Part shown: positions 1 through 18,848 of the stretch, in pieces
How positions within the stretch are numbered: position 1 is the first letter of the stretch
Layout: every line of letters begins with the position of its first letter
Source: Escherichia coli
GTDB lineage: Bacteria; Pseudomonadota; Gammaproteobacteria; Enterobacterales; Enterobacteriaceae
Assembly: GCF_003334405.1 (NCBI RefSeq)
Contig: NZ_QOWM01000005.1
Reading direction: 5' to 3' (one strand)
DNA: 64,000 nucleotides
The notes under the pieces: generated by a model
Told to the model about the DNA's origin: nothing
Database searches by the model: none
Seen by the model: the letters and a program-made list of their open reading frames with translations, nothing else
Program-made: the position numbers and the translations under genes

Positions 1-1155
1 TAATTTTAAAATTAATTCACCGGCATCAGGCGAATGTATCAGCGTAGCTAAATGTGAACCACACTTGCAAGAATTGAAGTTGCTGTCCACTTTAAATTTA
101 AAGCGTCCGTTAGCAACCTCAGCATATCGGTAATTTTCATTCTCACTTTTCTCTTTTAGTTCGATCCTGAATTCATTATTGATATTTTCTAAGCAATATA
201 AGAATTTTTCTATCTCATATTCGTTAGTTTCAATCCAAAGAGCAATTGCAAAACCCTTTAAGGTAGATAAATGCTTATCCGATAAGATTTTAGACAGCTC
301 AATGAAAAAATCATGATGATCACAAGTCATAGCATCGAACTCGCCCTCAAGATAATCGGCATCCACGCCTAATTTTGCAGCATAAGCCTGAATGTTATTT
401 TTTATACACTCTATAACTTCTGCTTCTGGTGGTAAATTATTTTCTGAGGGTAGGAAAACATTTTTAATACAATCTGAATTTATTCCTCTGCTTTTAACTT
501 GATCGGCATCGTAAACAGATACTATGTTCAGGCCAGAGCTATCTTTATAATGCTCAGATACTTTTTGTATATTAGATTCACCTTGTAGATTATGTAAGTA
601 ACATGTAGAGTAAAGATGTGTGTTTTTTATTTTTAAGATATATTCAAGTACAAGTTTTGCAAAGTCATCCTCTATCAGGAAAATATTTTTCCTTTCAGGA
701 GCTAAACCCAGTGCATTGAAATATCTATAATTATATCCACAATTTGATATGGTATATTTTTTGCCTTTTTTAGCTAAGACTAATACTGAGTTTAAGCCTT
801 GAGGGCTGAGTATGTGTTCAGAGTGAGTAGCCATCAAAACATTTAATTTTTTAGTATCGATTGTGTAGGCTAAAAAATCCATGAAATTTTTCTGGCTTAC
901 CGGGCAAATAAAACTCTCTGGCTCTTCAATGAAGAGGATTGAATTTTTTTCCGTATAAATAAGTTTCCAGATTGCTATAAGTAACTTATGTTCTCCTTGC
1001 CCCATACTCTCTGACGTATAAACTATATTACTGTTAACCTCTTTAACCTCAAAGTATGGGAAAGTTAAATCATCAATAATTCCTTCTACCTCATTAACTT
1101 TTACATACTCATATTTCTTGCCTGTGATTTTCTGAACAAAAAAAAAGATTTTCAT
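1..1155 (-). CDS. Distal part of an OLD/ABC-type ATPase-nuclease (Walker B, H-loop, Toprim-like motifs); 3' end lies beyond the window start
   Basis: Minus-strand frame from ATG at 1155..1153 stays open to position 1 (absent from the ORF track, translated by hand: MKIFFFVQKITGKKYEYV...). Walker B-like ILFIEEPE (~917..940), H-loop-like LMATHSEH, then NIFLIEDDF (~663..690) and VYDAD (~500..517) resembling Toprim E and DxD motifs. Confidence 0.5.
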   Translation of the reverse strand, partial: MKIFFFVQKITGKKYEYVKVNEVEGIIDDLTFPYFEVKEVNSNIVYTSESMGQGEHKLLIAIWKLIYTEKNSILFIEEPESFICPVSQKNFMDFLAYTIDTKKLNVLMATHSEHILSPQGLNSVLVLAKKGKKYTISNCGYNYRYFNALGLAPERKNIFLIEDDFAKLVLEYILKIKNTHLYSTCYLHNLQGESNIQKVSEHYKDSSGLNIVSVYDADQVKSRGINSDCIKNVFLPSENNLPPEAEVIECIKNNIQAYAAKLGVDADYLEGEFDAMTCDHHDFFIELSKILSDKHLSTLKGFAIALWIETNEYEIEKFLYCLENINNEFRIELKEKSENENYRYAEVANGRFKFKVDSNFNSCKCGSHLATLIHSPDAGELILKL

Positions 1156-1603
1156 TTAGCAAATGATAAGAATTTGATGTATTGAACCATCCATTTTTGT
1201 TTGGCGATGTGTTTATTTCGTTTATGATTTTTAATGCCATTGATGAAGCATCAAAATATTCAACATTTCTTAGTCCATCACCCAAAGACGAAGTGAAAGT
1301 TTGTTTCTCTCCATTAATTATTATATCAATGGAGATATTATCAATATCAGAAGAGCTAAAAATCCCAACATTACATATATCTTTCGACAGTATACCATAG
1401 ATAAGTTTCAATAACGACGTTTTACCAATGCCATTTCTTCCACATATAGAGGTTAAAGCTGAGTTTATCGTAATATCAGCATCTTCAAAGAGTGGTACAT
1501 TCTTAATGGATAAACTACATATTTTAATATTAAACTTTTTCCTGTTTGCCACATGATTCCAATAATCAGCTAATTTTGCCATTTTAATTGTTTCTATTGA
1601 CAT
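1109..1603 (-). CDS. N-terminal fragment of the same P-loop ATPase (Walker A), in a different frame from the downstream part
   Basis: 164-aa ORF with Walker A ICGRNGIGKTSLL (~1418..1444); stop at 1111..1109 lies 47 nt inside the 1..1155 frame; the overlap contains an A9/T9 run at 1138..1146. Confidence 0.55.
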   Translation of the reverse strand: MSIETIKMAKLADYWNHVANRKKFNIKICSLSIKNVPLFEDADITINSALTSICGRNGIGKTSLLKLIYGILSKDICNVGIFSSSDIDNISIDIIINGEKQTFTSSLGDGLRNVEYFDASSMALKIINEINTSPNKNGWFNTSNSYHLLNENLFFCSENHRQEI

Positions 1604-2799
1604 GTAGTTACCCCCGCTAAAACAGAATCTGCATAATTGTTGACGACGCTTATCAGATTCTTTTCATTTTCATGATAAAGTGCTCTATGCGCAGTTTTTA
1701 GATTATTTTTTTTCATCGTATTGAACACATCTGCTTTACTGGGGTCACTCTTCAAGAAAAATAGAGATATTATAAAGTCTCTGATGAGTAAGGAAGTACC
1801 AGTCATTACTCTTGATACAGCCCTAAAATTAAATTCTTCCAATAACTCCTTTACTTCATCTTTATTTTCACAATAAAACAATCCATCCAACACTCCCTCT
1901 TCTCTGAAAACGAATCTACCACTTTCAAAGCGGTAAAAGAAATCACTAAGGCTATCGTCTAAATTATAATTCGATTTTAAAATGGTTGAAAAAAAATAAA
2001 GCCATGAAGTTAAAGTGGCTTTTGTTATATGAACCTTACTTTCTTCACTATCAATCTTTTTCTTTGCCTTACTTAATATTAAAATGGATTTTTTTACTAG
2101 TTCTATGATTGAATTATCAAAAGGCTCATCTTCACGAGCCCTGTCGTTTAATTGCTTTTCTGTATAAGAAGCAATCAATGAATCCTTCTCAAGCATGTAG
2201 CAAAGTTTAATGAAAAGATCATGGTATGCCATCCTTTGATTACTAAAGCCTAGAAAGTGCTTGTCAAGCCCACAATCCGACATATAATCTACGAGAGATT
2301 TTATCTGGTTTCTTAAATCGCCAACATAAGCATTTCTCTTTTCTGCTGAAGTTAATTTAAGAGATTCATTCAATCTGTTGAATAGTTCACCGGGCTCTCC
2401 CTGATTGTATTCAACAATCTCAAATACTCGAATGGCATACCGTTCAAATCTGTTTTTTATTCTTTGAGGTAATTTATCAAAAGTTAATCCATCTAATTCT
2501 TTGATATCATCATCAATAGGTTCAATTAATCCATTTATTTTGAATTTATTATACATGAAATCTCTTATGGCACTTAATCGTTGCTGTCCATCGAGAACTT
2601 CTTGAATATAGGAATCTTCATTTAAAATAACATGGACAGGTGGAACCTGCCACCCTCTTAGAATAGTATCGATTAAAAGTTTTTTCTTCGGAAGTTGCCA
2701 GACTTCCGCCCTCTGGAAATCGGGTTGGAGATCTAGACTTCCTTCATGAATCCTAGAAAATATAGTCCTCAAATCTGGATCTGTAGTATTTATTTTCAT
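1594..2799 (-). CDS. DUF262 (ParB/Srx-like, GmrS N-terminal type) domain protein; no DUF1524/HNH partner domain apparent
   Basis: 401-aa ORF with LQPDFQR...VW and LDGQQRLSAI motifs (~2580..2603) near the N-terminus; start overlaps the upstream gene stop (ATGA at 2796..2799); AT-rich. Confidence 0.7.
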   Translation of the reverse strand: MKINTTDPDLRTIFSRIHEGSLDLQPDFQRAEVWQLPKKKLLIDTILRGWQVPPVHVILNEDSYIQEVLDGQQRLSAIRDFMYNKFKINGLIEPIDDDIKELDGLTFDKLPQRIKNRFERYAIRVFEIVEYNQGEPGELFNRLNESLKLTSAEKRNAYVGDLRNQIKSLVDYMSDCGLDKHFLGFSNQRMAYHDLFIKLCYMLEKDSLIASYTEKQLNDRAREDEPFDNSIIELVKKSILILSKAKKKIDSEESKVHITKATLTSWLYFFSTILKSNYNLDDSLSDFFYRFESGRFVFREEGVLDGLFYCENKDEVKELLEEFNFRAVSRVMTGTSLLIRDFIISLFFLKSDPSKADVFNTMKKNNLKTAHRALYHENEKNLISVVNNYADSVLAGVTTCQ

Positions 2800-5700
2800 T
2801 TCATTAACTCCCAGAATGCTTTATCACGCATTTTCCTAACTTTTTTATTTCCATCTATATACAGGCTAAAATGCTTCTCAAGTTGTCGTATCTGGCCCAT
2901 TAAAGACTCCTGCTCACTTTTATCGTCAATGTTAAATACCGCCTTAATGTCCGAATTCCTAATCTCAGAAACTCGATGAATTACCCAAGTGAGAATATAA
3001 GAAGCATAATTATTCTCGCCTGTTTTAAAGTGAGTAATTTCTTGTGTTGATAGAATCGCCCCTACACCATATTCACGGCCTTCTTTAAGGATTTTACGCA
3101 AGCTGGCAAAATCCTGGCGCATAAAGTTATCGGCTTCATCAACCAGAATCATTTTGGTTAACTGGCGATAATCACCTCGCACCGTCGGTTTCCCACGCTT
3201 TTGCATCTGCGCATAAAAAAGATCCAGTGTCAGTGCAACTACCAGGTTTTGAATCTCTGATGGATAACCAGCGAGTTCGATAACTGTGACTCCATCAACC
3301 AGATCGTACAAACTGGTCATCTTCTCTGGATCCGTTTCAAAAATCTGGAAACCAGCCAGATTATAAAGTGCAGCATATAATGAATCTTCGTCGACCTTCT
3401 CTTGTGCCAGGTACTGCTGCCACACATCTTCAATAGTCGGTGCTACACGATTCCATGTTGATCGATCATGAGGCACTATTCCTGCTAAGTCATAGCACTC
3501 CATTATTAACGTAACCAGCTTCATGCGTTGTTTTACGCCAAGGTTATACGCTTTGCCCATCGTTTCAGCGAATGCCATGGCCGTATGCCTCGGTAACATG
3601 GGCATATCACCAAATAACGATAACGGATTGTAAGGTAACAACGATAGCTGATACCTCTTAGCTCCCGTAGCTTCAAGAAACGCATCATCCACATAGTCGG
3701 ATTTATAGTCGAAGATCAACAAGCCAATCGGTTTACCGTCAACGTTGTAGGACTGATTGCGCATCAGTTGCGTAACCAGCGATTTAGTAAACTGGGTTTT
3801 CCCGGTGCCCATTGTTCCAATAATGCCGGTATTAGTATTCATGAACTTAGCGGTGTTGGTTGGTTCCCAGTACAATGGATTCTGACGCACAGCATCATGA
3901 CCAAACAAGATCTGTAATGGTGTATTGCGGACATTACTGGGGGTTAGTGCCGATGCTTCAGGTTGTGGAAGCTCCAGCGCAGAAATGGGCGGCGGCTCAG
4001 TTGTTGTTGCTACCTGTACTGGGTGTGAAGAATTGACATCACACTCTGGTTTGAGCAGATATTTTTCCGGCACCCGATAGCGTTCAGCTAGTGGAGGTTG
4101 ATCACCTTGTGCTGCAATTAACGATGGAAGCAATGAATAGGGGATTTCGATCTGTAGAATATTCTCTGCCGTTTCTTTATAAGAGAGATCAAAACAGGTT
4201 CCGCTGTCTACATGAGCTACCACAAAGCCTTCTGCATAATCAGCAAGCTCACCTAACTGATAGTCGCCAGTGAGCCACCATTCACGTCGTTCCAGCAGAG
4301 GGGATAGCTTGTCGTTATCCAGTACACCATACAGACGCAACTTCTCTACCTGCATTAATACTTGGCGGATAAAAAGTGCCCGGTATAGTTGTGATGCTAG
4401 AGTTTTCGGCCCAAGAATATCTTGCTGTAAATAGCGTTTTAGCTCGCGGGCCTGCTGCCCCGCATGGTTGTAATCGGGGCGAGCTCCTGTTTTTACTTCA
4501 AGTGGTAACAGATACAGGTTGTTATCTTTGAAACCGACAAAGAGCACATCGTCAGAGATCGCTCCTTTCTGATAACCCTGTAAATGGCGCGATAAATCGC
4601 TTTCTTTCATTCTCAGCCCGACGTTGCCGGACACGCGGATCATCTCAGCTACTGACAGTGGAATCCAGCAAATATCTGACTGGAGCAGCATAGACTGTAC
4701 GAATTTGTATGCACCGATAATGCCGTGTTTTTCTTTGCGCTCCTTTTCATTTGAACGCAACATTTTTAACAGCCACTCACCGTTAAAGGCATTAAATTCA
4801 GCAAGTAGTTGCTGGCTATCAACGGTGGATTGTCCTGTTTGAAGGAGACGCAGGAACAACTCAACCTGTTTTGTGACAGTTACGGCGTCATAACCAGCAC
4901 AACTGGTGTACTGGTCAGAGTAATGAATTAGTACGACATCTTTTTGACTAGTAAAGAAATCGAGTGTGACCTTAGGGTCGATAATTGTGGTCCAGAGAGA
5001 GCTATCATAAGAGCGATTCAGCAGTTGCTTAAAGTTACCGCTCACAGCCAGACTAATTCCCTGACCGTGATACTGGCTGTTGCTCTGCCGTGCCGGTTGC
5101 CACAGACAGCCTAACAAGCGGGCGAGACGCAGGGCGCAAGACGATTCAGTATCGACATTACGCAGACCAAACGCGGTAAAGTAAGCATCGCCTTGTGTTT
5201 CAGCCCCTTCGCCTGCAATCAAGCCATGACATAAAACCCCGCTGGCAGCATCCTCAATGCGAATTTGGCGGCAATCAACCGGTGCGGTGTTGGTGAAAAA
5301 TGCGAGATGGGCGTAAGCCAGTTGATCGCTTTCCGGTGGCAGGATAAATTTGCTGAATGTTAAGCGACTGCGAAGCAGATCGATCAACATATCGGCTTCA
5401 GAACGCCACGCACCGCTGTTCAGACCAAGATCATTTTTAAGTTGTTCATAGCTGCCGCTTTCGGCAAAGCGGTCAAAGGCATTGGGTAGCAGACGTTCGT
5501 CATAGCAGTTTACGTGTATCGAAATTGCGTTATCTTTTTCCTGCTTAAAATAATCTACCAGTCCCAGGAATAGCTCTCTGGCTTCTCCCATATTAATAGC
5601 ATTAATAACCAGGGCATTATTTCCTGCACTCTGGAACAGCCGAGAATAGGCATCTGTAAATTCGTTTAGCTTGTCTTTCACCAGACGCTTAACATATTCG

Positions 5701-7880
5701 TGGCTCATCTGGCGCTGGGGAACAATATCTATCCAGAAGCGGTTTTCTACCATCGGTTGTAACTGTGCGTATTCATGTTCGCTATGATACACAAATGGCA
5801 TTAGGCCAGAGACGACCAGACGATCTAGAGTAATCTCTGGTAATGAAGCGAAGGAAGCTGATGTGGGGTATCCGGGCTCGGCGATAATAGTTTCAGCTAG
5901 CTGTAAATGATAAGCCATTACCAATGGGTGCAGAGGCGAGAGACGTTCATAATCGTCGCCGCGGCAAATCCCCAGATGTAACAGACGTTTTTCCTGGATG
6001 GTTAATGCTCTGCTTAGACTGATTTGCTGTAATGCCTGTTCAAAAGTAGCGATCATGTGACTGACTAATACACGATATTCTGCTGACCATGACACCAGAC
6101 TCGGCAGGGTATTTCGACGTTGATAGTAAACGAACAATTGGTGGTACGCATTATGGAGGTCGGGATAGCTCGCCAGAAGCTCATCCAGTGCAAACTCACT
6201 ACCATTACTGCCAGTGCTGAGCAGATTACGCTCGATCAGGGCGTACTCTTGCATAAGCAACTGCTGGCGAACACCAACCACATTATGTTCGATATTGTCC
6301 AGGATGACGCGACCTTTCAACTTGTTCCAGGTTGCATTCCCTTCTTCTTTAAAGAGTTTATTGAAACGACCCTGATCAAAAAGCAGAGGCAGTGTTAATC
6401 CTTCCTCTGCTCCTGGACCTTCGATGTTAAACAGTAAACGGGAGTCACCTGAAATCAAGGTAAATTTGATCAGCTCACTTTGATTCGCCAGCGTTTCAAA
6501 ATTAACGAGTGCATAATGGCGGCAATCAACATCATCACTTTCTTCATCAAGTAAACAGGTCTTGTCGCCGAACTCTGCAATACGTAACTCATTATCTTCC
6601 AGTTGCAGAGTTAATTGACCTTTACCAGGTTCAATACGATAACAATGCTGGATTTCATTAAGCCAGAATTGCCCTTGTTCAACTAACAGCAGGCGAAACT
6701 TGTACTCTTCTGCTGAGTTATTGCGGTTAATGATTTCGAGGCTAAAGAAGCAGGGCCGACCATCAAAAGGCACTGATGCCAGTATCTTAGAGTTTCTCCC
6801 CCCGAGCCGGCTAGTACGCCAGAATCGTTCTTTCTGTAACGGACGATGATGAGCAATTTTTACCTGATTGTCCTGAAGGTCGTTACCCTGGAAGATAAAC
6901 TCCAGCTCAACTTGTGACTGCCCCGGTAGAACCTGAACCAGGACACTGATATCTCGTTTACCTGCTTTACTGGTGCTTTTGGCTCTTTGCCAGACCTCAC
7001 CGTTTTCAGCAGTAATGTTTTCCAACACCAGTTTCTGTTCACTGTTTTGTGCTTTTTCATTCAGGTAGACGGAGAAATCAAGCTCACGCCAATCGTCATT
7101 GTCAACGAAATGCTCCTGAATGAATTTTGCACTAAATTCAGTTAGTACATTCTCCAGTTGCCCGCTGTAGCGTTCAACACTGTCCTCTATCTGGCGATAT
7201 AACTTTTGGTTTTCATTGAGCCGGGCGCGCAACTGCTTATCACTAAAATTCAGCAGGTTATTATCGTTGAATAACTTTAGCTCTGAGAAATCCAGATTGC
7301 CGTCGTCCAGCAGACGGTATAACGATGAAAATCCAAAAACCGTAGCGCCTTCATCCAATATTGTTGTCAACTGATCGCCCAGCAAACAGCGGGATACTTG
7401 AGAACGGGCGCTGTCCGTTGTGATTAACTTTTCGAGCTGGTGACGGAAGGTTTCTGGATGCCAGATAGCATCCGGTGCAGCGACATCTTTGGTACTATTG
7501 AGTAAGGTATCCAGCATGCTGTTGTGGATAATCAACAACGCTGTCTGGGCAAAAATGCCATTGCGGCCAGAAACCTGATCGCGTAAATGAGAAATATAGT
7601 TTTCTGTGAATGCAGGGGTAGTGGTGCCGTGCAGTACCGGAATAAGCTGGATATTATTACATTGGACGTAGGTAAGAAATTGCTCCGGTGCAATTTCTAG
7701 TTTATTTCCATTTGCTAAAGAGTCGAAAGCCTTCCAGAGCTTTAAGGCGTTATCCGGATCGGGAGATTTAAACTGGTAGCGCTCACCAGGCTGGATGATG
7801 CTGCTAACCCATTCAATGAAGGTTTCTGCCAGATAGGTTTCATACTGTTTTACGGACATATACGGCGTCTCCACTGTCAC
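2796..7880 (-). CDS. Large (1694 aa) island protein with C-terminal HerA/FtsK-type P-loop ATPase; possibly DptH/DndH-like
   Basis: Walker A GTMGTGKT (~3795..3818), Walker B ILVDEAD (~3129..3143), then REYGVGAILSTQ (~3028..3080) resembling the HerA/FtsK arginine-finger and TQ motif. Candidate PD-(D/E)xK motif VLFVGFKD...LPLEVK (~4491..4540). Start could instead be the Met at 7859. Confidence 0.65.
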   Translation of the reverse strand: MTVETPYMSVKQYETYLAETFIEWVSSIIQPGERYQFKSPDPDNALKLWKAFDSLANGNKLEIAPEQFLTYVQCNNIQLIPVLHGTTTPAFTENYISHLRDQVSGRNGIFAQTALLIIHNSMLDTLLNSTKDVAAPDAIWHPETFRHQLEKLITTDSARSQVSRCLLGDQLTTILDEGATVFGFSSLYRLLDDGNLDFSELKLFNDNNLLNFSDKQLRARLNENQKLYRQIEDSVERYSGQLENVLTEFSAKFIQEHFVDNDDWRELDFSVYLNEKAQNSEQKLVLENITAENGEVWQRAKSTSKAGKRDISVLVQVLPGQSQVELEFIFQGNDLQDNQVKIAHHRPLQKERFWRTSRLGGRNSKILASVPFDGRPCFFSLEIINRNNSAEEYKFRLLLVEQGQFWLNEIQHCYRIEPGKGQLTLQLEDNELRIAEFGDKTCLLDEESDDVDCRHYALVNFETLANQSELIKFTLISGDSRLLFNIEGPGAEEGLTLPLLFDQGRFNKLFKEEGNATWNKLKGRVILDNIEHNVVGVRQQLLMQEYALIERNLLSTGSNGSEFALDELLASYPDLHNAYHQLFVYYQRRNTLPSLVSWSAEYRVLVSHMIATFEQALQQISLSRALTIQEKRLLHLGICRGDDYERLSPLHPLVMAYHLQLAETIIAEPGYPTSASFASLPEITLDRLVVSGLMPFVYHSEHEYAQLQPMVENRFWIDIVPQRQMSHEYVKRLVKDKLNEFTDAYSRLFQSAGNNALVINAINMGEARELFLGLVDYFKQEKDNAISIHVNCYDERLLPNAFDRFAESGSYEQLKNDLGLNSGAWRSEADMLIDLLRSRLTFSKFILPPESDQLAYAHLAFFTNTAPVDCRQIRIEDAASGVLCHGLIAGEGAETQGDAYFTAFGLRNVDTESSCALRLARLLGCLWQPARQSNSQYHGQGISLAVSGNFKQLLNRSYDSSLWTTIIDPKVTLDFFTSQKDVVLIHYSDQYTSCAGYDAVTVTKQVELFLRLLQTGQSTVDSQQLLAEFNAFNGEWLLKMLRSNEKERKEKHGIIGAYKFVQSMLLQSDICWIPLSVAEMIRVSGNVGLRMKESDLSRHLQGYQKGAISDDVLFVGFKDNNLYLLPLEVKTGARPDYNHAGQQARELKRYLQQDILGPKTLASQLYRALFIRQVLMQVEKLRLYGVLDNDKLSPLLERREWWLTGDYQLGELADYAEGFVVAHVDSGTCFDLSYKETAENILQIEIPYSLLPSLIAAQGDQPPLAERYRVPEKYLLKPECDVNSSHPVQVATTTEPPPISALELPQPEASALTPSNVRNTPLQILFGHDAVRQNPLYWEPTNTAKFMNTNTGIIGTMGTGKTQFTKSLVTQLMRNQSYNVDGKPIGLLIFDYKSDYVDDAFLEATGAKRYQLSLLPYNPLSLFGDMPMLPRHTAMAFAETMGKAYNLGVKQRMKLVTLIMECYDLAGIVPHDRSTWNRVAPTIEDVWQQYLAQEKVDEDSLYAALYNLAGFQIFETDPEKMTSLYDLVDGVTVIELAGYPSEIQNLVVALTLDLFYAQMQKRGKPTVRGDYRQLTKMILVDEADNFMRQDFASLRKILKEGREYGVGAILSTQEITHFKTGENNYASYILTWVIHRVSEIRNSDIKAVFNIDDKSEQESLMGQIRQLEKHFSLYIDGNKKVRKMRDKAFWELMK

Positions 7881-9165
7881 TCATTCTCTCCACATTTCCC
7901 ATGCGTTCATAAAACGCAACCAGCATTTGTGTAGACTGGTTATCCAGATAAAATCCGCGTTGCTCAAAACCACGTAGCAGCTCATGCAGACGGAGTTTTT
8001 TGTTTTTACCCACGGTAAGGTTAGTTAGTAGCAGTAGTCGATCCTGGTTCAGTACCAGCACTTTCCCCGCTCGGCCACGAACCTGAATGAAGTCAGTGCA
8101 AATCTGGCTTTCCAGCTCGTTGATGTATTTGCGATTTACCGCTGCTCGCTCGGTTTTCTTACCCTGAAACTGTTCAACGGCAACAGATAACAGCTGTTTA
8201 AAGGCATCTTCCAGGTTTGTAGCACGATCGCGTTCAGGAAGGTCTCGCTCCTCCTTACTAATGAACTTCTGTATATAATTATTGAGTTCATTTAGTACTC
8301 GATTCGATGTATCTGAATAACCTAAGCAATCTTGATATACCTGCCAAAGAGGGCGCTTTTCCTCACCTTTTACTTGTAATACCTCTAATGCAGAGAGTAC
8401 GGGGAATAATTTTTCACTTTGGCGGGCAAACCACTTATAGCCGAAGAGCTTTATTTTATCTCGTTCGGAGCTAGCTTTTTCAGTATCGAGGATAAAGAAC
8501 AATGATTTACTCTGCGGCTCGCCGTCTTGCCAGTTGTCCAGATTGAGCGCCAGTTGTGCGCACCAACTAAAGGCATACAAACGTAGAGTATTGGTCAGCT
8601 CCTGCAAAAGATATTGTGGGTGCTCTGCCAGAAACGCCAAATCAGACTGAAAACACGTTACCAGATAGGGTAAATAAGGTTGTTCTTTTGCAAATGGCCC
8701 CTCACCCAGTCGGATTAATTTTTTATTGAGCTTATTCAGCATCTCTTTTTCAATAAAATTCAACTTATCTTGTATCGGGTTATTAAGGCTAAAATCTCTC
8801 ATCAAATTGGCAAACAGTGTTCCAAGGCGTTTGTCGGCAGTCGAGCCTGCACTTATCTTTTCACCATCAAACTGAGCGTGGAACAGCAAGAACAGCGGGG
8901 AGACACGAAAAATATCCTGACTGGAAAAATACATCCGTTCCAGCACGGACAAGAACGCAGGTTCATCGATCAATATTTGCAGATGAGTTTTACAATCCTC
9001 GCGAAACTGCTCGAGACTGTATGTATCGATTTTATACTTCACGGCATAGCTCAGTACTAAACCTGTGACGATTTGCCAGTCAATATTGTTATTCTTATTA
9101 CGTATTGGAAGGTAGCTATCCAGCTGGTTATTACTAACTTTTAAATTTGTTGCAATGGGATACAT
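7840..9165 (-). CDS. 441-aa island protein with no recognisable motif; possibly DptG/DndG-like
   Basis: ORF sits 4 nt downstream of the 549-aa gene and overlaps the 1694-aa gene start by 41 nt; AT-rich codon usage. Confidence 0.6.
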   Translation of the reverse strand: MYPIATNLKVSNNQLDSYLPIRNKNNNIDWQIVTGLVLSYAVKYKIDTYSLEQFREDCKTHLQILIDEPAFLSVLERMYFSSQDIFRVSPLFLLFHAQFDGEKISAGSTADKRLGTLFANLMRDFSLNNPIQDKLNFIEKEMLNKLNKKLIRLGEGPFAKEQPYLPYLVTCFQSDLAFLAEHPQYLLQELTNTLRLYAFSWCAQLALNLDNWQDGEPQSKSLFFILDTEKASSERDKIKLFGYKWFARQSEKLFPVLSALEVLQVKGEEKRPLWQVYQDCLGYSDTSNRVLNELNNYIQKFISKEERDLPERDRATNLEDAFKQLLSVAVEQFQGKKTERAAVNRKYINELESQICTDFIQVRGRAGKVLVLNQDRLLLLTNLTVGKNKKLRLHELLRGFEQRGFYLDNQSTQMLVAFYERMGNVERMSDSGDAVYVRKTV

Positions 9166-9169
9166 GATG

Positions 9170-10819
9170 TTATCCCTCCATGCCGCTGATAGTAATCATG
9201 TCATCGTCCGCTCTTGCACTATAGACCCGCTTTAGGCCATCATAAAACTTGATTTCGCTGCTGGATTTTGCCTTTTCTGCGATTAGTTCAACGATTTCGT
9301 CCAGTAAGACAATCGCACTTTTATCATACTTATTAGGGCGATAGCCATTATTTAGTTTGCTCAATAGCTCAAATAAATTAAGACCGATCCGAATCGGATC
9401 TAGCGGATCTTGTCCTACTTTTAAATAGATATCGAAACAAGTTGTATGGGCTGTATTTTTCTTGAGAATTGAATCCCAGTCCGGTTTCAGCGCAACAGGT
9501 GCTGTGATTTTAATCCCACCAAATTCGCCTAAAAAGAACTCTTCTTTTTGGGTACTCAGTTCAGGTGCTTTACGGTTTGCGTAACGCTGAATACCAGCGA
9601 TAAGCTCGAAAGAGTAAAAGCGGTTTAGTGTTCTTTTTTGTTCCGGATCTGCGGTATAGTTTTTATGCAGATGCCAAATCTCTGAATAACGCTCAAAGAG
9701 CGCTTCTTTAAAGAATACAGAGAACCTTTTGTGATAGTTATTCCCTAAAGATTCATGTTGTAGTAGCCAGAAAAGTCTAATTAATGAAGCTGCGTCACCA
9801 GGCTTAACACATTGACGATCAAACGTAAGATGTAATTTCGCAAGTGTACTCAGAAAATCATCCAGTTCGGGATCAACTAATCCAAGCTCATAGCGCAAAA
9901 TAAATTGATCAATCTCGTATGTATGCAATCTGGCAGGATCAAAATCAGAAACCTTTTTAATTAGATCATTCTCTGCACCATTAAACAGATTATCAAACAG
10001 GTACCCAGGCCCTGTCAGCAGGTGGTGTAAAAAATCCAATAAGGTTCTTGTGGTAACAAATTGATCTTTTATTAATCGGGCTTTAAATAGCTGTGTTATT
10101 AAAACATTCTGAACACCGGGCATGCACAGTAGTTTAAAGTTAGCAACGGTTTTTAAATCATGTCCTATTGATTCATCACGTTGATAAATTGTGTAAAACA
10201 GGTTTTTGTCGTCATTCCCCGTTAATTGATTCATTAATTTTTTGATAAAAGGGGAGTATTCCCGCTCTTCGTCAAACTCGAACTTTGGATAATGTTCGAA
10301 ATCAAAAAATATACAATTTTCGTTGCGGTAAGGACGCTGGCCTTCCTGTTGCGCTGACAAGAATGAGTCAATAGCAGCACGGATAGCCATATGGGACTCA
10401 GAACCTTCTCTGGCAAAATTGGCTAGCATCCCGGTGTTGATACCGATGAGGAGCGGGTATGATTGCGAATGATGATTTTCAAATAAATCATTCAGTGCAT
10501 CGATAGCCGATTGTTGAGGCGCAAAGCTATGTGTCGCATCCAGATGGAAACTAAACTTCTGTTGATATTGTGGATCTGACTTACAGCGGGTTAAAATTTC
10601 GGATTTCCCGTCTCCACTACTTCCGCATAGAAAAATGATCTCACCGGGAGTAGCTGTATCCAGATAACGCTGTAACTCTTCTTCAATCTCTTGTTTAACA
10701 AAGAGTTGTTCTTTTAGCTCATCGAACACATCCTTTTGCCGATGAGTTTCTGTGGTTACGGAAAACGAAGATGACTTCGCAAGTACACCTAACGCTTTAC
10801 GTAATGTGATCGCGCTCAT
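9170..10819 (-). CDS. 549-aa P-loop NTPase, first gene of the island operon; possibly DptF/DndF-like
   Basis: N-terminal P-loop FLCGSSGDGKSE (~10597..10630); first ORF downstream of the 209-bp gap after the integrase. Confidence 0.6.
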   Translation of the reverse strand: MSAITLRKALGVLAKSSSFSVTTETHRQKDVFDELKEQLFVKQEIEEELQRYLDTATPGEIIFLCGSSGDGKSEILTRCKSDPQYQQKFSFHLDATHSFAPQQSAIDALNDLFENHHSQSYPLLIGINTGMLANFAREGSESHMAIRAAIDSFLSAQQEGQRPYRNENCIFFDFEHYPKFEFDEEREYSPFIKKLMNQLTGNDDKNLFYTIYQRDESIGHDLKTVANFKLLCMPGVQNVLITQLFKARLIKDQFVTTRTLLDFLHHLLTGPGYLFDNLFNGAENDLIKKVSDFDPARLHTYEIDQFILRYELGLVDPELDDFLSTLAKLHLTFDRQCVKPGDAASLIRLFWLLQHESLGNNYHKRFSVFFKEALFERYSEIWHLHKNYTADPEQKRTLNRFYSFELIAGIQRYANRKAPELSTQKEEFFLGEFGGIKITAPVALKPDWDSILKKNTAHTTCFDIYLKVGQDPLDPIRIGLNLFELLSKLNNGYRPNKYDKSAIVLLDEIVELIAEKAKSSSEIKFYDGLKRVYSARADDDMITISGMEG

Positions 10820-11028
10820 AACTTCATGTTCTCTAAAGAAAGAATATCCTTATTCTATACAAGCTAACAATTGAGCACCATATGCCTTTTTCTCCAGGTA
10901 CGTTCAATACTCTGCAGAACTACCTGAAACCAATGCGCGGACAGCTACCATCATGAAATTGTTGCAACTTTGACCAACGAGCCTACTTAACAAAGTGTGA
11001 CGGTAGGCTCTATTTTTGTTACACAGCT
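10820..11028 (-). promoter_or_regulatory. Intergenic region between integrase 3' end and first operon gene; likely holds the operon promoter
   Basis: 209-bp non-coding AT-rich gap; I did not identify a convincing -35/-10 pair or a terminator hairpin. Confidence 0.3.
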
Positions 11029-12297
11029 TTAGCGCTTTAACGACGCAAAAATTTTGGCAAAATCAAACGGGCTAATCACTTTCTCGCGATTTACATCTAG
11101 AAAATCCGCCCACCACTGCAACATCAATCTTCTCTCATCCAAATGTTCTGCCTTATGGATATAAGCCGCTCGAACGGAGTTACGTTCCATATGGCTCATC
11201 TGACGCTCTACCGCATCCCTCGACCACAGCCCTGACTCAATCAGCGAGCTACATGCCATAGTCCTGAAACCATGCCCACAAACCTCTACCCTAGTGTCAT
11301 AACCCATAACGCGCAGCGCCTTGTTCACCGTGTTTTCACTCATCGGTTTACGCGGATCATGATCGCCAATGAAAACAAAATCGCGCTCGCCACTAAGCTT
11401 GTGAACCTGTTTGAGGATTGCCAGAGCCTGATGAGACAATGGCACCAGATGAGGTGTGCGCATTTTAGAACCACGTTGAGAGTGCTTCACTCCTTCGATA
11501 GCTTCTCGTTCTGCCGGTATCGTCCACATTGCCGTATCGAAATCGATCTCAGACCAGCGGGCAAAGCGCAATTCACTGGAACGAATGAAGATTAATAAGG
11601 TTAGCTCAACAGCCAGGCGGGTCAAAGGGCGTCCCGTGTAACCGTCAATTCGGTGGAGCAGTTCAGGTAGACGTTTCAGCTCAAGTGCAGGGCGATGGAC
11701 ACGGTTACTGGAAGCAACTGCGCCAGCCATCTCTTGAGCCGGGTTGTAATCAATCAGCCCACTTTGTACCGCATAGCGCATGATTGCTGTGGTTCTCTGC
11801 TGAAGGCGAGAAGCAACTTCAAAGCGGCCTGTCGCTTCCACGATTTTTATGGGTGCAAGCAGGTCACGAGTTTTTAGCTCTTCGATACTTCGTCTGCCAA
11901 TTGCCGAGAACAAATTGTCCTCTAAGCTCTTCAATACCCTTCGGCTGTGTTCTTCGGACCATTTCTTATTAGTAGCGTGCCATTCTCTGGCAACTGACTC
12001 GAAGGTAATAGCCTCTTTCGCCTGTTCTTCTTTCACAGCACGTTTATGCTCGCGAGGGTCGATTCCAGCAGCAACAAGTCTCCTAGCCTCTTCTCTTTTT
12101 TGACGGGCATCAGCCAGTGAAGTTTCAGGGTAAACACCGAAAGCCATCAGGTGTTGCTTGCCACCGAAGCGAAAGCGGAACCGCCAGTATTTTGAGCCGT
12201 TGGGATGAATCAGCAAAAACATGCCATCCCCATCGACTAGGGTGTACTCCTTTTCCTGCGGTTTCGCAGAACGTACTTTAGTATCTGTCAGAGCCAT
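11029..12297 (-). CDS. intB: P4-type tyrosine integrase (IntB-like), apparently intact
   Basis: 422-aa ORF next to a tRNA 3' end; the C-terminal region (around ...EVCGHGFRTMACSSLIESGLWSRDAVERQMSHMERNSVRAAYIHKAEH) has tyrosine-recombinase-like R/H..R/Y spacing; position matches P4-like tRNA-associated integrases. Confidence 0.85.
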   Translation of the reverse strand: MALTDTKVRSAKPQEKEYTLVDGDGMFLLIHPNGSKYWRFRFRFGGKQHLMAFGVYPETSLADARQKREEARRLVAAGIDPREHKRAVKEEQAKEAITFESVAREWHATNKKWSEEHSRRVLKSLEDNLFSAIGRRSIEELKTRDLLAPIKIVEATGRFEVASRLQQRTTAIMRYAVQSGLIDYNPAQEMAGAVASSNRVHRPALELKRLPELLHRIDGYTGRPLTRLAVELTLLIFIRSSELRFARWSEIDFDTAMWTIPAEREAIEGVKHSQRGSKMRTPHLVPLSHQALAILKQVHKLSGERDFVFIGDHDPRKPMSENTVNKALRVMGYDTRVEVCGHGFRTMACSSLIESGLWSRDAVERQMSHMERNSVRAAYIHKAEHLDERRLMLQWWADFLDVNREKVISPFDFAKIFASLKR

Positions 12298-12496
12298 AAA
12301 AGTTCTCCTTCCATGTGCCGCTGTGAGTATACAACCATTATCGAACCAGCATATATACTCGGTTCTATACTCACAAGCGACTTGATGTGGGTTGACTCAG
12401 ATTGACTTCTGTTGAAAGGAAAATCGCGGAAGGCCTTGTATGACGGGGATTTCAGGCATAAAAAAAGACCTCAGTTGAGGTCCATTTACATGCTTT

Positions 12497-12581
12497 TGGT
12501 GCCGAAGGCCGGACTCGAACCGGCACGTATTTCTACGGTTGATTTTGAATCAACTGCGTCTACCGATTTCGCCACTTCGGC
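12497..12581 (-). tRNA. leuX: tRNA-Leu (leuX)
   Basis: Plus strand reads TGGTGCCGAAGGCCGGACTCGAACCGGCACG...GCCACTTCGGC, the reverse complement of an 85-nt tRNA-Leu with CCA end at the low coordinate facing the integrase. Confidence 0.9.
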
Positions 12582-12776
12582 ACTGAAGAGGTATGCGGAA
12601 AACGTTGTGAATTATACCTGTCACGCACCACCATGCAAGCGCCAGCTTGCTCGCACCTCGCTAAGTGCTGAAATTTTCAGCATTGCATACCGCGATGTGT
12701 AACCTTTGTCACACTCCAGGCACCCCGCCCTGCCATGCTCTACACTTCCCAGACAACACCAGAGAAGGACCAAAAA

Positions 12777-13796
12777 ATGTCGATGATAAAAAGCTATGCC
12801 GCAAAAGAAGCGGGCGGCGAACTGGAAGTTTATGAGTACGATCCCGGTGAGCTGAAGCCACAAGATATTGAAGTGCAGGTGGATTACTGCGGGATCTGCC
12901 ATTCCGATCTGTCGATGATCGATAACGAATGGGGATTTTCACAGTATCCGCTGGTTGCCGGGCATGAGGTGATTGGGCGCGTGGTGGCACTCGGGAGCGC
13001 CGCGCAGGATAAAGGTTTGCAGGTCGGTCAGCGTGTCGGGATTGGCTGGACGGCGCGTAGCTGTGGTCACTGCGACGCCTGTATTAGCGGTAATCAGATC
13101 AACTGCGAGCAAGGTGCGGTGCCGACGATTATGAATCGCGGTGGCTTTGCCGAGAAGTTGCGTGCGGACTGGCAATGGGTGATTCCACTGCCAGAAAATA
13201 TTGATATCGAGTCCGCCGGGCCGCTGTTGTGCGGCGGTATCACGGTCTTTAAACCACTATTGATGCACCATATCACTGCTACCAGCCGCGTTGGGGTAAT
13301 TGGTATTGGCGGGCTGGGGCATATCGCTATAAAACTTCTGCACGCAATGGGATGCGAGGTGACAGCCTTTAGTTCAAATCCGGCGAAAGAGCAGGAAGTA
13401 CTGGCGATGGGTGCCGATAAAGTGGTGAATAGCCGCGATCCGCAGGCACTGAAAACTCTGGCGGGGCAGTTTGATCTCATTATCAATACTGTGAACGTCA
13501 GCCTCGACTGGCAGCCTTATTTTGAGGCGCTGACGTATGGCGGTAATTTCCATACGGTCGGTGCGGTTCTCACGCCGCTGTCTGTTCCGGCCTTTACGTT
13601 AATTGCGGGCGATCGCAGTGTCTCTGGCTCTGCTACTGGCACGCCTTATGAGTTGCGTAAGCTGATGCGTTTTGCCGCCCGCAGCAAGGTTGCGCCGACT
13701 ACCGAATTGTTCCCGATGTCGAAAATTAACGACGCCATCCAGCATGTGCGCGACGGTAAGGCGCGTTACCGCGTGGTGTTGAAAGCCGATTTTTGA
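12777..13796 (+). CDS. ahr: NADPH-dependent aldehyde reductase (zinc alcohol dehydrogenase family)
   Basis: [19 protein letters not shown]... with CGICHSDL zinc motif; start taken at internal Met of the 353-aa ORF. Confidence 0.9.
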
Positions 13797-17849: not shown

Positions 17850-18848
17850 ATGCGCAATCACAGAATTTCTTTACAGGATATCGCTACGCTGGCTGGCGTA
17901 ACAAAAATGACCGTGAGTCGTTATATCCGCTCGCCGAAAAAGGTGGCAAAGGAAACAGGCGAGCGCATCGCCAAAATTATGGAAGAGATCAATTATATCC
18001 CTAATCGCGCTCCCGGCATGTTGTTGAATGCACAAAGTTATACCCTCGGTATCTTGATTCCGTCATTTCAAAATCAACTCTTCGCTGACATTCTCGCGGG
18101 AATAGAATCCGTCACCTCTGAGCATAATTATCAGACCCTTATTGCTAATTACAATTACGATCGCGATTCCGAAGAAGAGTCGGTGATTAACCTGCTCTCT
18201 TATAACATTGACGGGATTATACTTTCGGAAAAATATCACACCATCAGGACGGTGAAATTTCTGCGTTCAGCCACCATTCCGGTCGTGGAATTGATGGATG
18301 TACAGGGAGAACGGCTGGATATGGAGGTCGGTTTTGATAATCGGCAGGCCGCTTTTGACATGGTGTGTACCATGCTGGAGAAGCGAGTCAGGCACAAAAT
18401 TCTGTATCTCGGTTCCAAAGATGACACCCGCGATGAACAGCGTTATCAGGGGTATTGCGATGCGATGATGCTGCATAATCTTTCCCCATTACGCATGAAT
18501 CCACGCGCCATCTCATCCATTCATTTAGGAATGCAGTTAATGCGTGATGCCCTTAGCGCAAACCCGGATTTAGACGGTGTATTTTGCACCAATGACGATA
18601 TTGCGATGGGTGCGCTTCTGCTGTGCCGCGAGCGAAACCTCGCCGTGCCAGAACAAATTTCCATTGCGGGTTTTCATGGGCTGGAGATTGGCAGGCAAAT
18701 GATCCCAAGCCTCGCCAGCGTAATTACTCCCCGTTTTGATATTGGTCGGATGGCCGCCCAAATGTTGCTGAGCAAAATTAAAAATAACGATCACAACCAC
18801 AACACTGTTGACCTCGGGTATCAGATTTATCACGGCAACACGCTTTAG
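17850..18848 (+). CDS. idnR: LacI-family regulator of idonate catabolism
   Basis: N-terminal [24 protein letters not shown]; start taken at the internal Met (MRNHRISLQ). Confidence 0.88.

What the first reader, a model, noticed from the sequence alone, without database searches (positions are those of the whole stretch)
2796..10819. First three genes resemble DptF/DptG/DptH (DndFGH), but no modification genes are visible
The sizes (549, 441 and 1694 aa), the order, and an N-terminal P-loop in the first protein match my recollection of the phosphorothioate-dependent restriction module DptFGH. That module is usually found with dndBCDE, whose products (PAPS-reductase-like DndC, SMC-like DndD, DndE) are not in the 12.5 kb seen here. 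The module is therefore either an orphan restriction unit or its partners lie beyond the window start.
Basis: inference. Interest (0 to 1): 0.75.

Follow-up and report, generated by a model that had tools for sequence, protein, structure and literature searches.

The report
Known E. coli B7A-type DptFGH restriction genes
The three genes are the well-studied DptF/DptG/DptH restriction proteins of the E. coli B7A phosphorothioate defence system, and their dndBCDE modification partners almost certainly start about 90 bases before the window, so the module is ordinary rather than orphan.

Summary
Three co-oriented minus-strand ORFs lie at 9170-10819 (549 aa), 7840-9165 (441 aa) and 2796-7880 (1694 aa; the annotated start gives 1687 aa). 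They score far above the curated cut-offs of the DptF, DptG and DptH equivalog models. They are 100% identical to the E. coli B7A proteins, two of which have solved structures (7EXX, 7ES4).

No dnd modification gene lies anywhere in the 64 kb window. However, all 13 complete E. coli genomes that share window 1-13000 carry dndBCDE. In B7A and WEM25, where I read the annotation, dndE ends 92 nt before window position 1. The "orphan" reading is therefore not supported, and this is the published B7A-type leuX island.

One thing is less ordinary. Two further genes sit between dptH and dndE: a 401-aa DUF262 protein (1594-2799) and an OLD-type ABC-ATPase/Toprim nuclease (window 1-1603). The nuclease gene is frameshifted here by an A9 tract where 12 of those 13 genomes have A8. 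Relatives of this pair sit next to dndBCDE in 10 sampled gammaproteobacterial species, four of them without dptFGH. The pair occupies the position that DndI holds in Salmonella. I found no open-access paper describing it as Dnd-linked.

The parts
9170..10819 (-). dptF (dndF), 549 aa, a P-loop protein with Walker A GSSGDGKS at residues 66-73
   Evidence: TIGR03238 scores 439.4 bits against a cut-off of 50. PADLOC DndF gives 3.4e-235. The protein is 100% identical to B7A WP_001274541. No Pfam family matches below E 0.001.
7840..9165 (-). dptG (dndG), 441 aa
   Evidence: TIGR03236 scores 301.3 bits against a cut-off of 20. PADLOC DndG gives 8.1e-193. PDB 7EXX 'DptG' matches over residues 1-441 with E 1.1e-296. 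The protein is 100% identical to B7A.
2796..7859 (-). dptH (dndH), 1687 aa from the annotated ATG (the open frame extends to a GTG at 7880, giving 1694 aa). The C-terminal HerA/FtsK-type ATPase has Walker A GTMGTGKT at 1348-1355 and Walker B MILVDE at 1570.
   Evidence: TIGR03237 scores 1210.7 bits against a cut-off of 620.65. PADLOC DndH scores 2832 bits. PDB 7ES4 'DptH' matches residues 1313-1687 with E 3.6e-253.
1594..2799 (-). A 401-aa ParB-like DUF262 (GmrSD_N) protein with no DUF1524/HNH domain. It overlaps the dptH stop codon by 4 nt.
   Evidence: Pfam GmrSD_N gives 5e-20. PADLOC gives NsnA 3.1e-33 and PD-T4-2_A 5.5e-18. The motifs QRxxVW, DGQQR and FxRLN are invariant across 13 homologues. 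The AF2 model has pLDDT 85.7, and its best fold match is BrxU/GmrSD 7p9k (E 3e-3, probability 0.99).
1..1603 (-). OLD-family ABC-ATPase/Toprim nuclease gene (536 aa in B7A). Here one extra base splits it into a 164-aa N-terminal ORF (1109-1603) and an otherwise open remainder (1-1146). The last 3 codons and the stop lie before window position 1.
   Evidence: The window fragments are 98-99.7% identical to B7A WP_000021429 'ATP-dependent nuclease'. Conserved features are Walker A, MGxGE, EPE, THS, Toprim E311/D312 and D365xD367. The best profile and fold matches are OLD nuclease 6p74, then GajA and the retron Eco8 effector.
1138..1146 (.). Homopolymer tract: A9 in the window, A8 (in frame) in 12 complete genomes by matched length (sequence read in B7A and WEM25), and A7 in strain EC416
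   Evidence: Alignments. Matched lengths are 2798 bases in 12 genomes and 2796 in EC416, against 2799 in the window.
11029..12297 (-). Tyrosine integrase of the genomic island
   Evidence: The NCBIfam integrase domain model NF007246 gives 1.7e-83, although its 280.6 bits fall below that model's 434-bit cut-off. RefSeq annotates it as 'tyrosine-type recombinase/integrase'.
12497..12581 (-). tRNA-Leu(CAA), the island's insertion site and its boundary inside the window
   Evidence: ARAGORN. GC is 0.32-0.47 to its left and about 0.50 or higher across most of the core genes to its right. Ho et al. 2015 (PMC4373003) describe dnd islands at this Leu tRNA.

Best explanation
Window 2796-10819 encodes DptF, DptG and DptH (= DndF, DndG, DndH), the restriction half of the phosphorothioate (PT) defence system of E. 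coli B7A-type strains. It sits in a horizontally acquired island inserted at tRNA-Leu(CAA). The modification half, dndBCDE, lies just outside the window and converges on this operon. The cysteine desulfurase role of DndA is supplied by chromosomal IscS.

The mechanism comes from experiments published on these same B7A proteins. DndBCDE with IscS writes PT at a fraction of GAAC/GTTC sites. DndF, DndG and DndH assemble 2:2:1 into a machine that binds DNA, translocates on ATP using the HerA/FtsK-type motor at the DptH C-terminus, and nicks DNA. PT sites repress its ATPase and so stop translocation on self DNA, whereas unmodified phage DNA is shredded.

What is shown here is gene identity, integrity, order, island context and the position of dndBCDE in every identical locus. 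What is taken from the literature is the complex stoichiometry and the PT-controlled translocation and nicking. What is inferred is that this particular genome carries dndBCDE and PT-modified DNA.
For: All three proteins pass their equivalog models: 439, 301 and 1211 bits against cut-offs of 50, 20 and 621. The PADLOC DndF, DndG and DndH models match full length. Window 1147-10916 has no mismatch to B7A, and the proteins are 100% identical. PDB 7EXX and 7ES4 are these proteins, and PMC10470545 says those crystals are from B7A. All 13 complete E. coli genomes containing window 1-13000 have dndBCDE at >= 99.6% identity contiguous with the window start, and dndE ends 92 nt before window position 1 in the two annotated records read. 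In E. coli, dndCD occurs in 207 genomes and dptFG in 212 of 5426, so pairing is the rule. The mechanism is stated in PMC11662687 and PMC10470545. B7A PT sites and their 12% occupancy are given in PMC4507180.
Against: The DNA before window position 1 was not available for the source genome itself. The window is not the B7A RefSeq record: it differs at positions 709, 1146 and 10917 and further on. Presence of dndBCDE is therefore an inference from 13 of 13 identical loci. The downstream OLD-type gene is frameshifted in the window, which could indicate some decay of the locus. A comparative-genomics study argues that DndFGH is often functionally decoupled from Dnd modification across prokaryotes (PMC10853773).
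Confidence: 0.93

Rival explanations
1. Orphan DptFGH: the source genome has lost, or never had, dndBCDE. The module then either acts without a modification partner or is silenced.
For: No dnd modification gene lies in the 64 kb window. Solitary dndFGH clusters exist: 82 strains are cited in the review PMC6435447. In E. coli, dptFG is found in 212 genomes and dndCD in 207, so a handful of unpaired loci may exist.
Against: The window begins 9 nt inside the 3' end of the gene that abuts dndE in every one of the 13 complete genomes sharing this sequence. No E. coli genome has the DUF262/OLD pair without dndBCDE. Unrestrained DndFGH damages the host's own DNA (PMC11662687), so an intact, 100% conserved dptFGH without PT is unlikely to persist.
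Confidence: 0.03
2. DptFGH acts here as a free-standing counter-invader system triggered by invader nucleotides or proteins (the Rakesh/Aravind/Krishnan model). Its position next to dndBCDE would then be defence-island co-location rather than a restriction-modification coupling.
For: PMC10853773 reports that only 806 of the 3416 modification-carrying taxa that encode at least one Dnd-linked endonuclease also have DndFGH. It also reports that DndF is a P-loop kinase-like nucleotide sensor and that DptH carries an inactive methylase plus TRDs. The DptF Walker A motif is intact here.
Against: For the B7A and Cerro 87 systems specifically, loss of PT makes DndFGH toxic, and PT represses the DndFGH ATPase (PMC11662687). 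The cloned B7A cluster gives PT and phage resistance (PMC10470545). In E. coli the two modules co-occur almost one to one.
Confidence: 0.04

Closest known systems
DndBCDE-DndFGH of Escherichia coli B7A (PT at GpsAAC/GpsTTC; structures 7EXX DndG and 7ES4 DndH C-terminal domain)
   Same: DptF, DptG, DptH and the DUF262 protein are 100% identical. The gene order, integrase, tRNA-Leu site and flanking core genes are the same.
   Different: The window differs from the B7A RefSeq record by a few SNPs (positions 709 and 10917, and others after 14.5 kb). It also has one extra A in the 1138-1146 tract, which frameshifts the OLD-type gene. The source is therefore a close relative or another assembly, not that record.
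DptFGH/DndFGHI of Salmonella enterica serovar Cerro 87
   Same: It has the same three-gene restriction operon convergent with dndBCDE and the same GAAC/GTTC PT motif. It also has a further ParB/DUF262-family gene co-transcribed downstream of dndH (PMC11662687).
   Different: In Cerro 87 the fourth gene is dndI, a single 656-aa DUF262+DUF1524(HNH) protein. Here the position holds a 401-aa DUF262-only protein plus a separate OLD-type ABC-ATPase/Toprim nuclease. A profile of the DUF262 protein matches no solved DUF262 structure at E <= 1.
Menshen (NsnABC) and other DUF262 systems lacking DUF1524 (PD-T4-2, Dazbog)
   Same: The 401-aa protein hits PADLOC NsnA (3.1e-33) and PD-T4-2_A (5.5e-18). It is followed by an OLD-type ABC ATPase that hits NsnB over 79 residues (2.8e-14). 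The sensor-plus-ATPase-plus-nuclease logic is as proposed in PMC12065111.
   Different: There are two genes, not three. There is no separate NsnC, and the Toprim nuclease is fused to the ATPase as in OLD and GajA. One clade of the pair is physically tied to dndBCDE.
Class 2 OLD nucleases / Gabija GajA
   Same: An ABC ATPase is fused to a Toprim domain with the conserved E and DxD residues. The best fold matches are 6p74 (4.9e-12) and GajA (8x5i and others).
   Different: The partner is a DUF262 protein rather than the GajB helicase, and the gene is frameshifted in this window.

Membership tests
DptF / DndF (TIGR03238) | Scores above the curated equivalog cut-off over the full length | tested here: met
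   439.4 bits against a cut-off of 50, residues 32-544 on profile positions 1-501 of 504. PADLOC DndF gives 3.4e-235.
DptF / DndF (TIGR03238) | N-terminal P-loop (kinase-like) domain with a canonical Walker A motif | tested here: met
   GSSGDGKS at residues 66-73. The feature is described in PMC10853773.
DptG / DndG (TIGR03236) | Scores above the curated equivalog cut-off, and is identical to the crystallised DndG | tested here: met
   301.3 bits against a cut-off of 20. PDB 7EXX matches residues 1-441 with E 1.1e-296.
DptH / DndH (TIGR03237) | Scores above the curated equivalog cut-off, is about 1700 aa long, and has a C-terminal HerA/FtsK-type ATPase with Walker A and B motifs | tested here: met
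   1210.7 bits against a cut-off of 620.65. Walker A is at 1348-1355 and Walker B at 1570. PDB 7ES4 covers 1313-1687.
Dnd PT restriction-modification system (DndBCDE-DndFGH) | dptF-dptG-dptH form one co-oriented, tightly packed operon | tested here: met
   A 4-nt gap and a 20-nt overlap separate the three genes.
Dnd PT restriction-modification system (DndBCDE-DndFGH) | dndBCDE modification genes lie in the same locus | tested here: inconclusive
   They are absent from the window. They are present and contiguous in 13 of 13 complete E. coli genomes sharing window 1-13000, and the two annotated records read place the end of dndE 92 nt before window position 1. The source genome's own upstream DNA could not be read.
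Dnd PT restriction-modification system (DndBCDE-DndFGH) | Genomic DNA carries PT at GAAC/GTTC, and restriction depends on it | not testable with these tools
   This is shown experimentally for B7A in the literature (PMC4507180, PMC10470545). It needs LC-MS/MS or iodine cleavage for this strain.
DndI (PT-sensing DUF262+DUF1524 nuclease) | N-terminal DUF262 domain, encoded directly downstream of dndH in the same orientation | tested here: met
   GmrSD_N gives 5e-20. There is a 4-nt overlap with the dptH stop.
DndI (PT-sensing DUF262+DUF1524 nuclease) | C-terminal DUF1524 HNH nuclease domain in the same polypeptide (about 656 aa) | tested here: not met
   The protein is 401 aa and only GmrSD_N is found. 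The C-terminal half is all-helical in the AF2 model. A family profile matches no solved structure at E <= 1.
Menshen (NsnABC) | A three-gene operon: NsnA (DUF262+ParBDB), NsnB (ABC ATPase+DUF3696) and a separate NsnC effector | tested here: not met
   The NsnA model hits at 3.1e-33. The NsnB model hits only 79 residues. There is no third gene: dndE follows convergently after 83 nt. The nuclease is fused to the ATPase.
OLD-family nuclease (ABC ATPase + Toprim) | ABC ATPase motifs plus a Toprim domain with the conserved Glu and DxD | tested here: met
   This holds for the intact B7A copy. Walker A, MGxGE, EPE, THS, E311/D312 and D365xD367 are invariant in 10 homologues. The best fold match is OLD nuclease 6p74 at 4.9e-12. 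The window's own copy is frameshifted.

The most novel reading that the evidence does not exclude
The DUF262 protein plus OLD-type ABC-ATPase/Toprim nuclease encoded between dptH and dndE (window 1-2799) may be a third, undescribed PT-coupled restriction module. It would be a two-gene analogue of DndI that shares the dndBCDE-written mark with DptFGH. If so, phage-resistance phenotypes published for the cloned B7A 'dndBCDE-FGH' cluster may include its contribution, because that roughly 16.6 kb insert must contain these genes by size. The A7/A8/A9 tract could then switch it on and off.
Probability: 0.3. Interest if true: 0.6.

Novelty: already known. Interest (0 to 1): 0.18.

Why it matters
For the finding as given, it matters little. 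This is the textbook B7A-type Dnd system, and the apparent lack of modification genes is an effect of where the window was cut.

The useful by-product is the DUF262/OLD-nuclease pair inside the cluster. Published B7A work calls the cluster 'dndBCDE-FGH', and Ho et al. 2015 list the intervening genes only as hypothetical proteins. Yet a clade of this pair has stayed next to dndBCDE across Escherichia, Yersinia, Aeromonas, Vibrio, Shewanella, Salmonella and Pseudomonas, sometimes as the only nuclease candidate seen beside the modification genes. If it reads PT, it would add a new effector type (OLD/Toprim) to PT-based immunity, and B7A phenotypes would need re-attribution.

Tried and rejected
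- **Pfam on DptF and DptG.** Nothing scored below E 0.001. These families are covered by TIGRFAM and PADLOC models, so this does not count against membership.
- **PDB sequence searches with the DUF262 protein.** Neither the single sequence nor a 13-sequence profile gave a meaningful hit, not even DndI, SspE or BrxU. I therefore could not test the DndI Y25 PT-sensing patch. Foldseek gave only a weak BrxU/ParB match.
- **The genome-contig scan.** It missed the close gammaproteobacterial relatives, so the Dnd-linkage sample rests on 11 encoding-contig look-ups plus that partial set, not on a census.
- **Promoter scan upstream of dptF (10700-11100).** It found no minus-strand sigma-70-like site, so the operon's promoter is not located.
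- **Orphan reading.** Rejected on the 13/13 locus comparison.
- **Filing the 401-aa protein as DndI.** Rejected, because it has no DUF1524/HNH domain.
- **Filing the pair as Menshen.** Rejected, because there is no third gene and the nuclease is fused to the ATPase.
- **Treating the frameshift as proof of gene decay.** Rejected, because the same homopolymer is A7 in another assembly. Sequencing error and slippage are equally possible.
Full report
**Observation**

The minus strand of window 2796-10819 carries three consecutive ORFs of 549, 441 and 1694 aa at exactly the stated coordinates. The third is the longest possible frame from a GTG. RefSeq annotates the ATG seven codons downstream (window 7859, 1687 aa). 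That start fits the DndH profile, which aligns from residue 8, and the numbering of the crystallised fragment, 1313-1687. The first protein has an N-terminal Walker A motif, GSSGDGKS, at residues 66-73. The genes are tightly packed, with a 4-nt gap and then a 20-nt overlap.

**Identity**

All three proteins pass NCBIfam equivalog models by wide margins:
- DptF, TIGR03238: 439.4 bits against a cut-off of 50.
- DptG, TIGR03236: 301.3 bits against a cut-off of 20.
- DptH, TIGR03237: 1210.7 bits against a cut-off of 620.65.

PADLOC DndF, DndG and DndH models match end to end. Megablast shows that window 1-13000 is essentially identical to 13 complete E. coli chromosomes, including strain B7A. Between window 1147 and 10916 there is not one mismatch to B7A, and DptF, DptG and DptH are 100% identical to the B7A proteins. 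PDB 7EXX (DptG, residues 1-441) and 7ES4 (DptH, residues 1313-1687) are these same proteins. PMC10470545 states that those crystals came from B7A. DptH has Walker A at 1348-1355 and Walker B at 1570 in its HerA/FtsK-type C-terminal ATPase.

**Where the modification genes are**

In B7A and in WEM25, however, dndB-dndC-dndD-dndE lie on the opposite strand just beyond the window. dndE ends at locus position 17909 and window position 1 is locus position 18001, a distance of 92 nt.

A query spanning dndBCDE plus the first 100 window bases matches all 13 of those genomes over its full length at >= 99.6% identity. No E. coli genome carries the window's first 2.8 kb without dndBCDE. Across 5426 complete E. 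coli genomes, dndCD is present in 207 and dptFG (at >= 80% coverage) in 212. Pairing is therefore the rule in this species.

A 9-bp-stem hairpin lies between the convergent operons at L001 17953-17973, just outside the window. The orphan reading is thus very unlikely. It cannot be excluded absolutely, because the window is not the B7A RefSeq record itself. It differs from that record at 709, 1146, 10917 and further positions, and its own upstream DNA could not be read.

**Context**

- A tyrosine integrase lies at 11029-12297 and tRNA-Leu(CAA) at 12497-12581.
- GC is 0.32-0.47 to the left of the tRNA. It is about 0.50 or higher across most of the core genes to the right.
- From 12.7 kb to the end of the window the genes are ordinary E. 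coli core genes, from ahr, the idn genes, yjgR and lptFG through pepA and valS to tamB.
- This is the dnd-encoding genomic island at the Leu tRNA described by Ho et al. 2015 (PMC4373003).

**Mechanism**

This part is taken from the literature on these same proteins and was not tested here.
- DndBCDE with IscS writes PT at GpsAAC/GpsTTC. Only about 12% of sites are modified in B7A (PMC4507180).
- PT represses its ATPase and so halts translocation on self DNA, while unmodified DNA is nicked during translocation (PMC11662687).
- Without PT, DndFGH damages the host.

A comparative study proposes instead that DndFGH is often a free-standing invader sensor. In that model DndF is a nucleotide-binding P-loop kinase, and DptH carries an inactive methylase, TRDs, an REase domain and a HerA/FtsK motor (PMC10853773). 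For this locus the experimental coupling to PT outweighs that general argument.

The operon continues past dptH with two more genes.

The first is a 401-aa protein at 1594-2799, which overlaps the dptH stop by 4 nt. It has only a GmrSD_N/DUF262 domain (Pfam 5e-20). Its QRxxVW, DGQQR and FxRLN motifs are intact.

The second overlaps the first by 10 nt. It is a 536-aa 'ATP-dependent nuclease' in B7A. It carries ABC-ATPase motifs and a Toprim E311/D312 ... D365xD367 signature that is invariant in 10 homologues. Its AF2 model (pLDDT 87) best matches the Thermus OLD nuclease 6p74, Gabija GajA and the retron Eco8 effector.

In the window this second gene is frameshifted by an A9 tract at 1138-1146. 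The tract is A8 in B7A and WEM25, where I read it. Ten further complete genomes match with the A8-consistent length of 2798 bases. It is A7 in strain EC416. The rest of the frame is open. This could be an assembly error, a recent mutation or a slippage switch.

**Is the pair tied to Dnd?**

In Salmonella Cerro 87 the same position holds dndI. DndI is a DUF262+DUF1524(HNH) protein, co-transcribed with dndFGH, that forms its own PT-sensing defence with IscS-DndBCDE (PMC11662687). The protein here lacks DUF1524 and matches no solved DUF262 structure by sequence. It is therefore not DndI.

Homologues of the 401-aa protein are always followed by the OLD-type gene wherever flanking DNA is available. 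In 10 gammaproteobacterial species the pair lies beside dndBCDE:
- With dptFGH (6): E. coli, Yersinia similis, Aeromonas hydrophila, Vibrio parahaemolyticus, V. vulnificus, Shewanella violacea.
- Without dptFGH in the DNA held (4): Salmonella enterica next to conjugative-transfer genes, and three Pseudomonas.

The other 19 sampled loci show no dnd gene. They come from Firmicutes, Bacteroidota, Alpha- and Betaproteobacteria, other Gammaproteobacteria, an actinomycete and an archaeon. Eighteen of them hold a few to 10 kb of flanking DNA, and one sits on a contig too short to judge. In a neighbour-joining tree the 10 Dnd-linked proteins fall in one clade. The only other member of that clade is the too-short Sphingobacterium contig. 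The sample is small and the tree is crude, so this is suggestive and not a census.

Other E. coli dnd islands fill the same position with different genes:
- FORC_041: a DGQHR protein plus a hypothetical protein.
- SE11: a 'restriction endonuclease' plus a hypothetical protein.
- 55989: AgrB-like, DndB-like and DGQHR genes.

I found no open-access paper linking a DUF262/OLD or Toprim pair to dndBCDE. [quoted passage not shown] The B7A clone used for phage assays was built from fragments of 8,286 and 8,321 bp. dndB to dptF spans 15,969 bp in B7A. By inference the clone contained the pair.

**Verdict**

The finding is a correct identification of a thoroughly characterised system. Its interesting reading, an orphan module, is an artefact of the window boundary. 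Novelty: already known. The DUF262/OLD pair is the only element that may deserve follow-up. I rate at about 0.3 the chance that it is a PT-coupled module rather than an independent two-gene system that travels with Dnd islands.

Noticed in passing
window 1-2799 (minus strand); related loci L006-L013, L098-L100: A DUF262-only protein plus an OLD-type ABC-ATPase/Toprim nuclease lie between dptH and dndE, in the position DndI holds in Salmonella Cerro 87. A clade of this pair is adjacent to dndBCDE in 10 gammaproteobacterial species, 4 of them without dptFGH in the DNA held. More distant pairs stand alone in other phyla.
   Followed up: yes
window 1138-1146: A homopolymer inside the OLD-type gene is A9 here (frameshift) and A7 in EC416 (frameshift). 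It is A8 (in frame) in B7A and WEM25, and 10 further complete genomes match with the A8-consistent length. It could be an assembly error, a mutation or a slippage switch.
   Followed up: partly
L003 6325-8018, L004 7528-9004, L005 6064-7743: The position between dndE and dptH varies among E. coli dnd islands at the same tRNA-Leu site. FORC_041 has a DGQHR protein plus a hypothetical protein. SE11 has a 'restriction endonuclease' plus a hypothetical protein. 55989 has AgrB-like, DndB-like and DGQHR genes. ParB-superfamily proteins recur there.
   Followed up: partly
L001 17953-17973 (47 to 27 nt before window position 1): A 9-bp-stem GC-rich hairpin sits between the convergent dndE and OLD-type genes. 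It reads as terminator-like on both strands.
   Followed up: no
L098 8909-9778 (Shewanella violacea): A ScoMcrA-type sulfur-binding-domain HNH gene sits between dptH and the DUF262/OLD pair. That one Dnd locus therefore carries three candidate nucleases.
   Followed up: no
window 31931-33649 (minus strand): A low-GC ORF of 572 aa (about 0.34 GC) lies between argF and tabA. It is annotated as a hypothetical protein in B7A and has no NCBIfam or PADLOC match.
   Followed up: partly
PMC10470545 methods; B7A NZ_CP035812 492190-508158: The plasmid pWHU4387, described as carrying B7A 'dndBCDEFGH', was built from fragments of 8,286 and 8,321 bp. By size it must include the DUF262 and OLD-type genes, so their contribution to the reported phage resistance was not separated.
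   Followed up: partly
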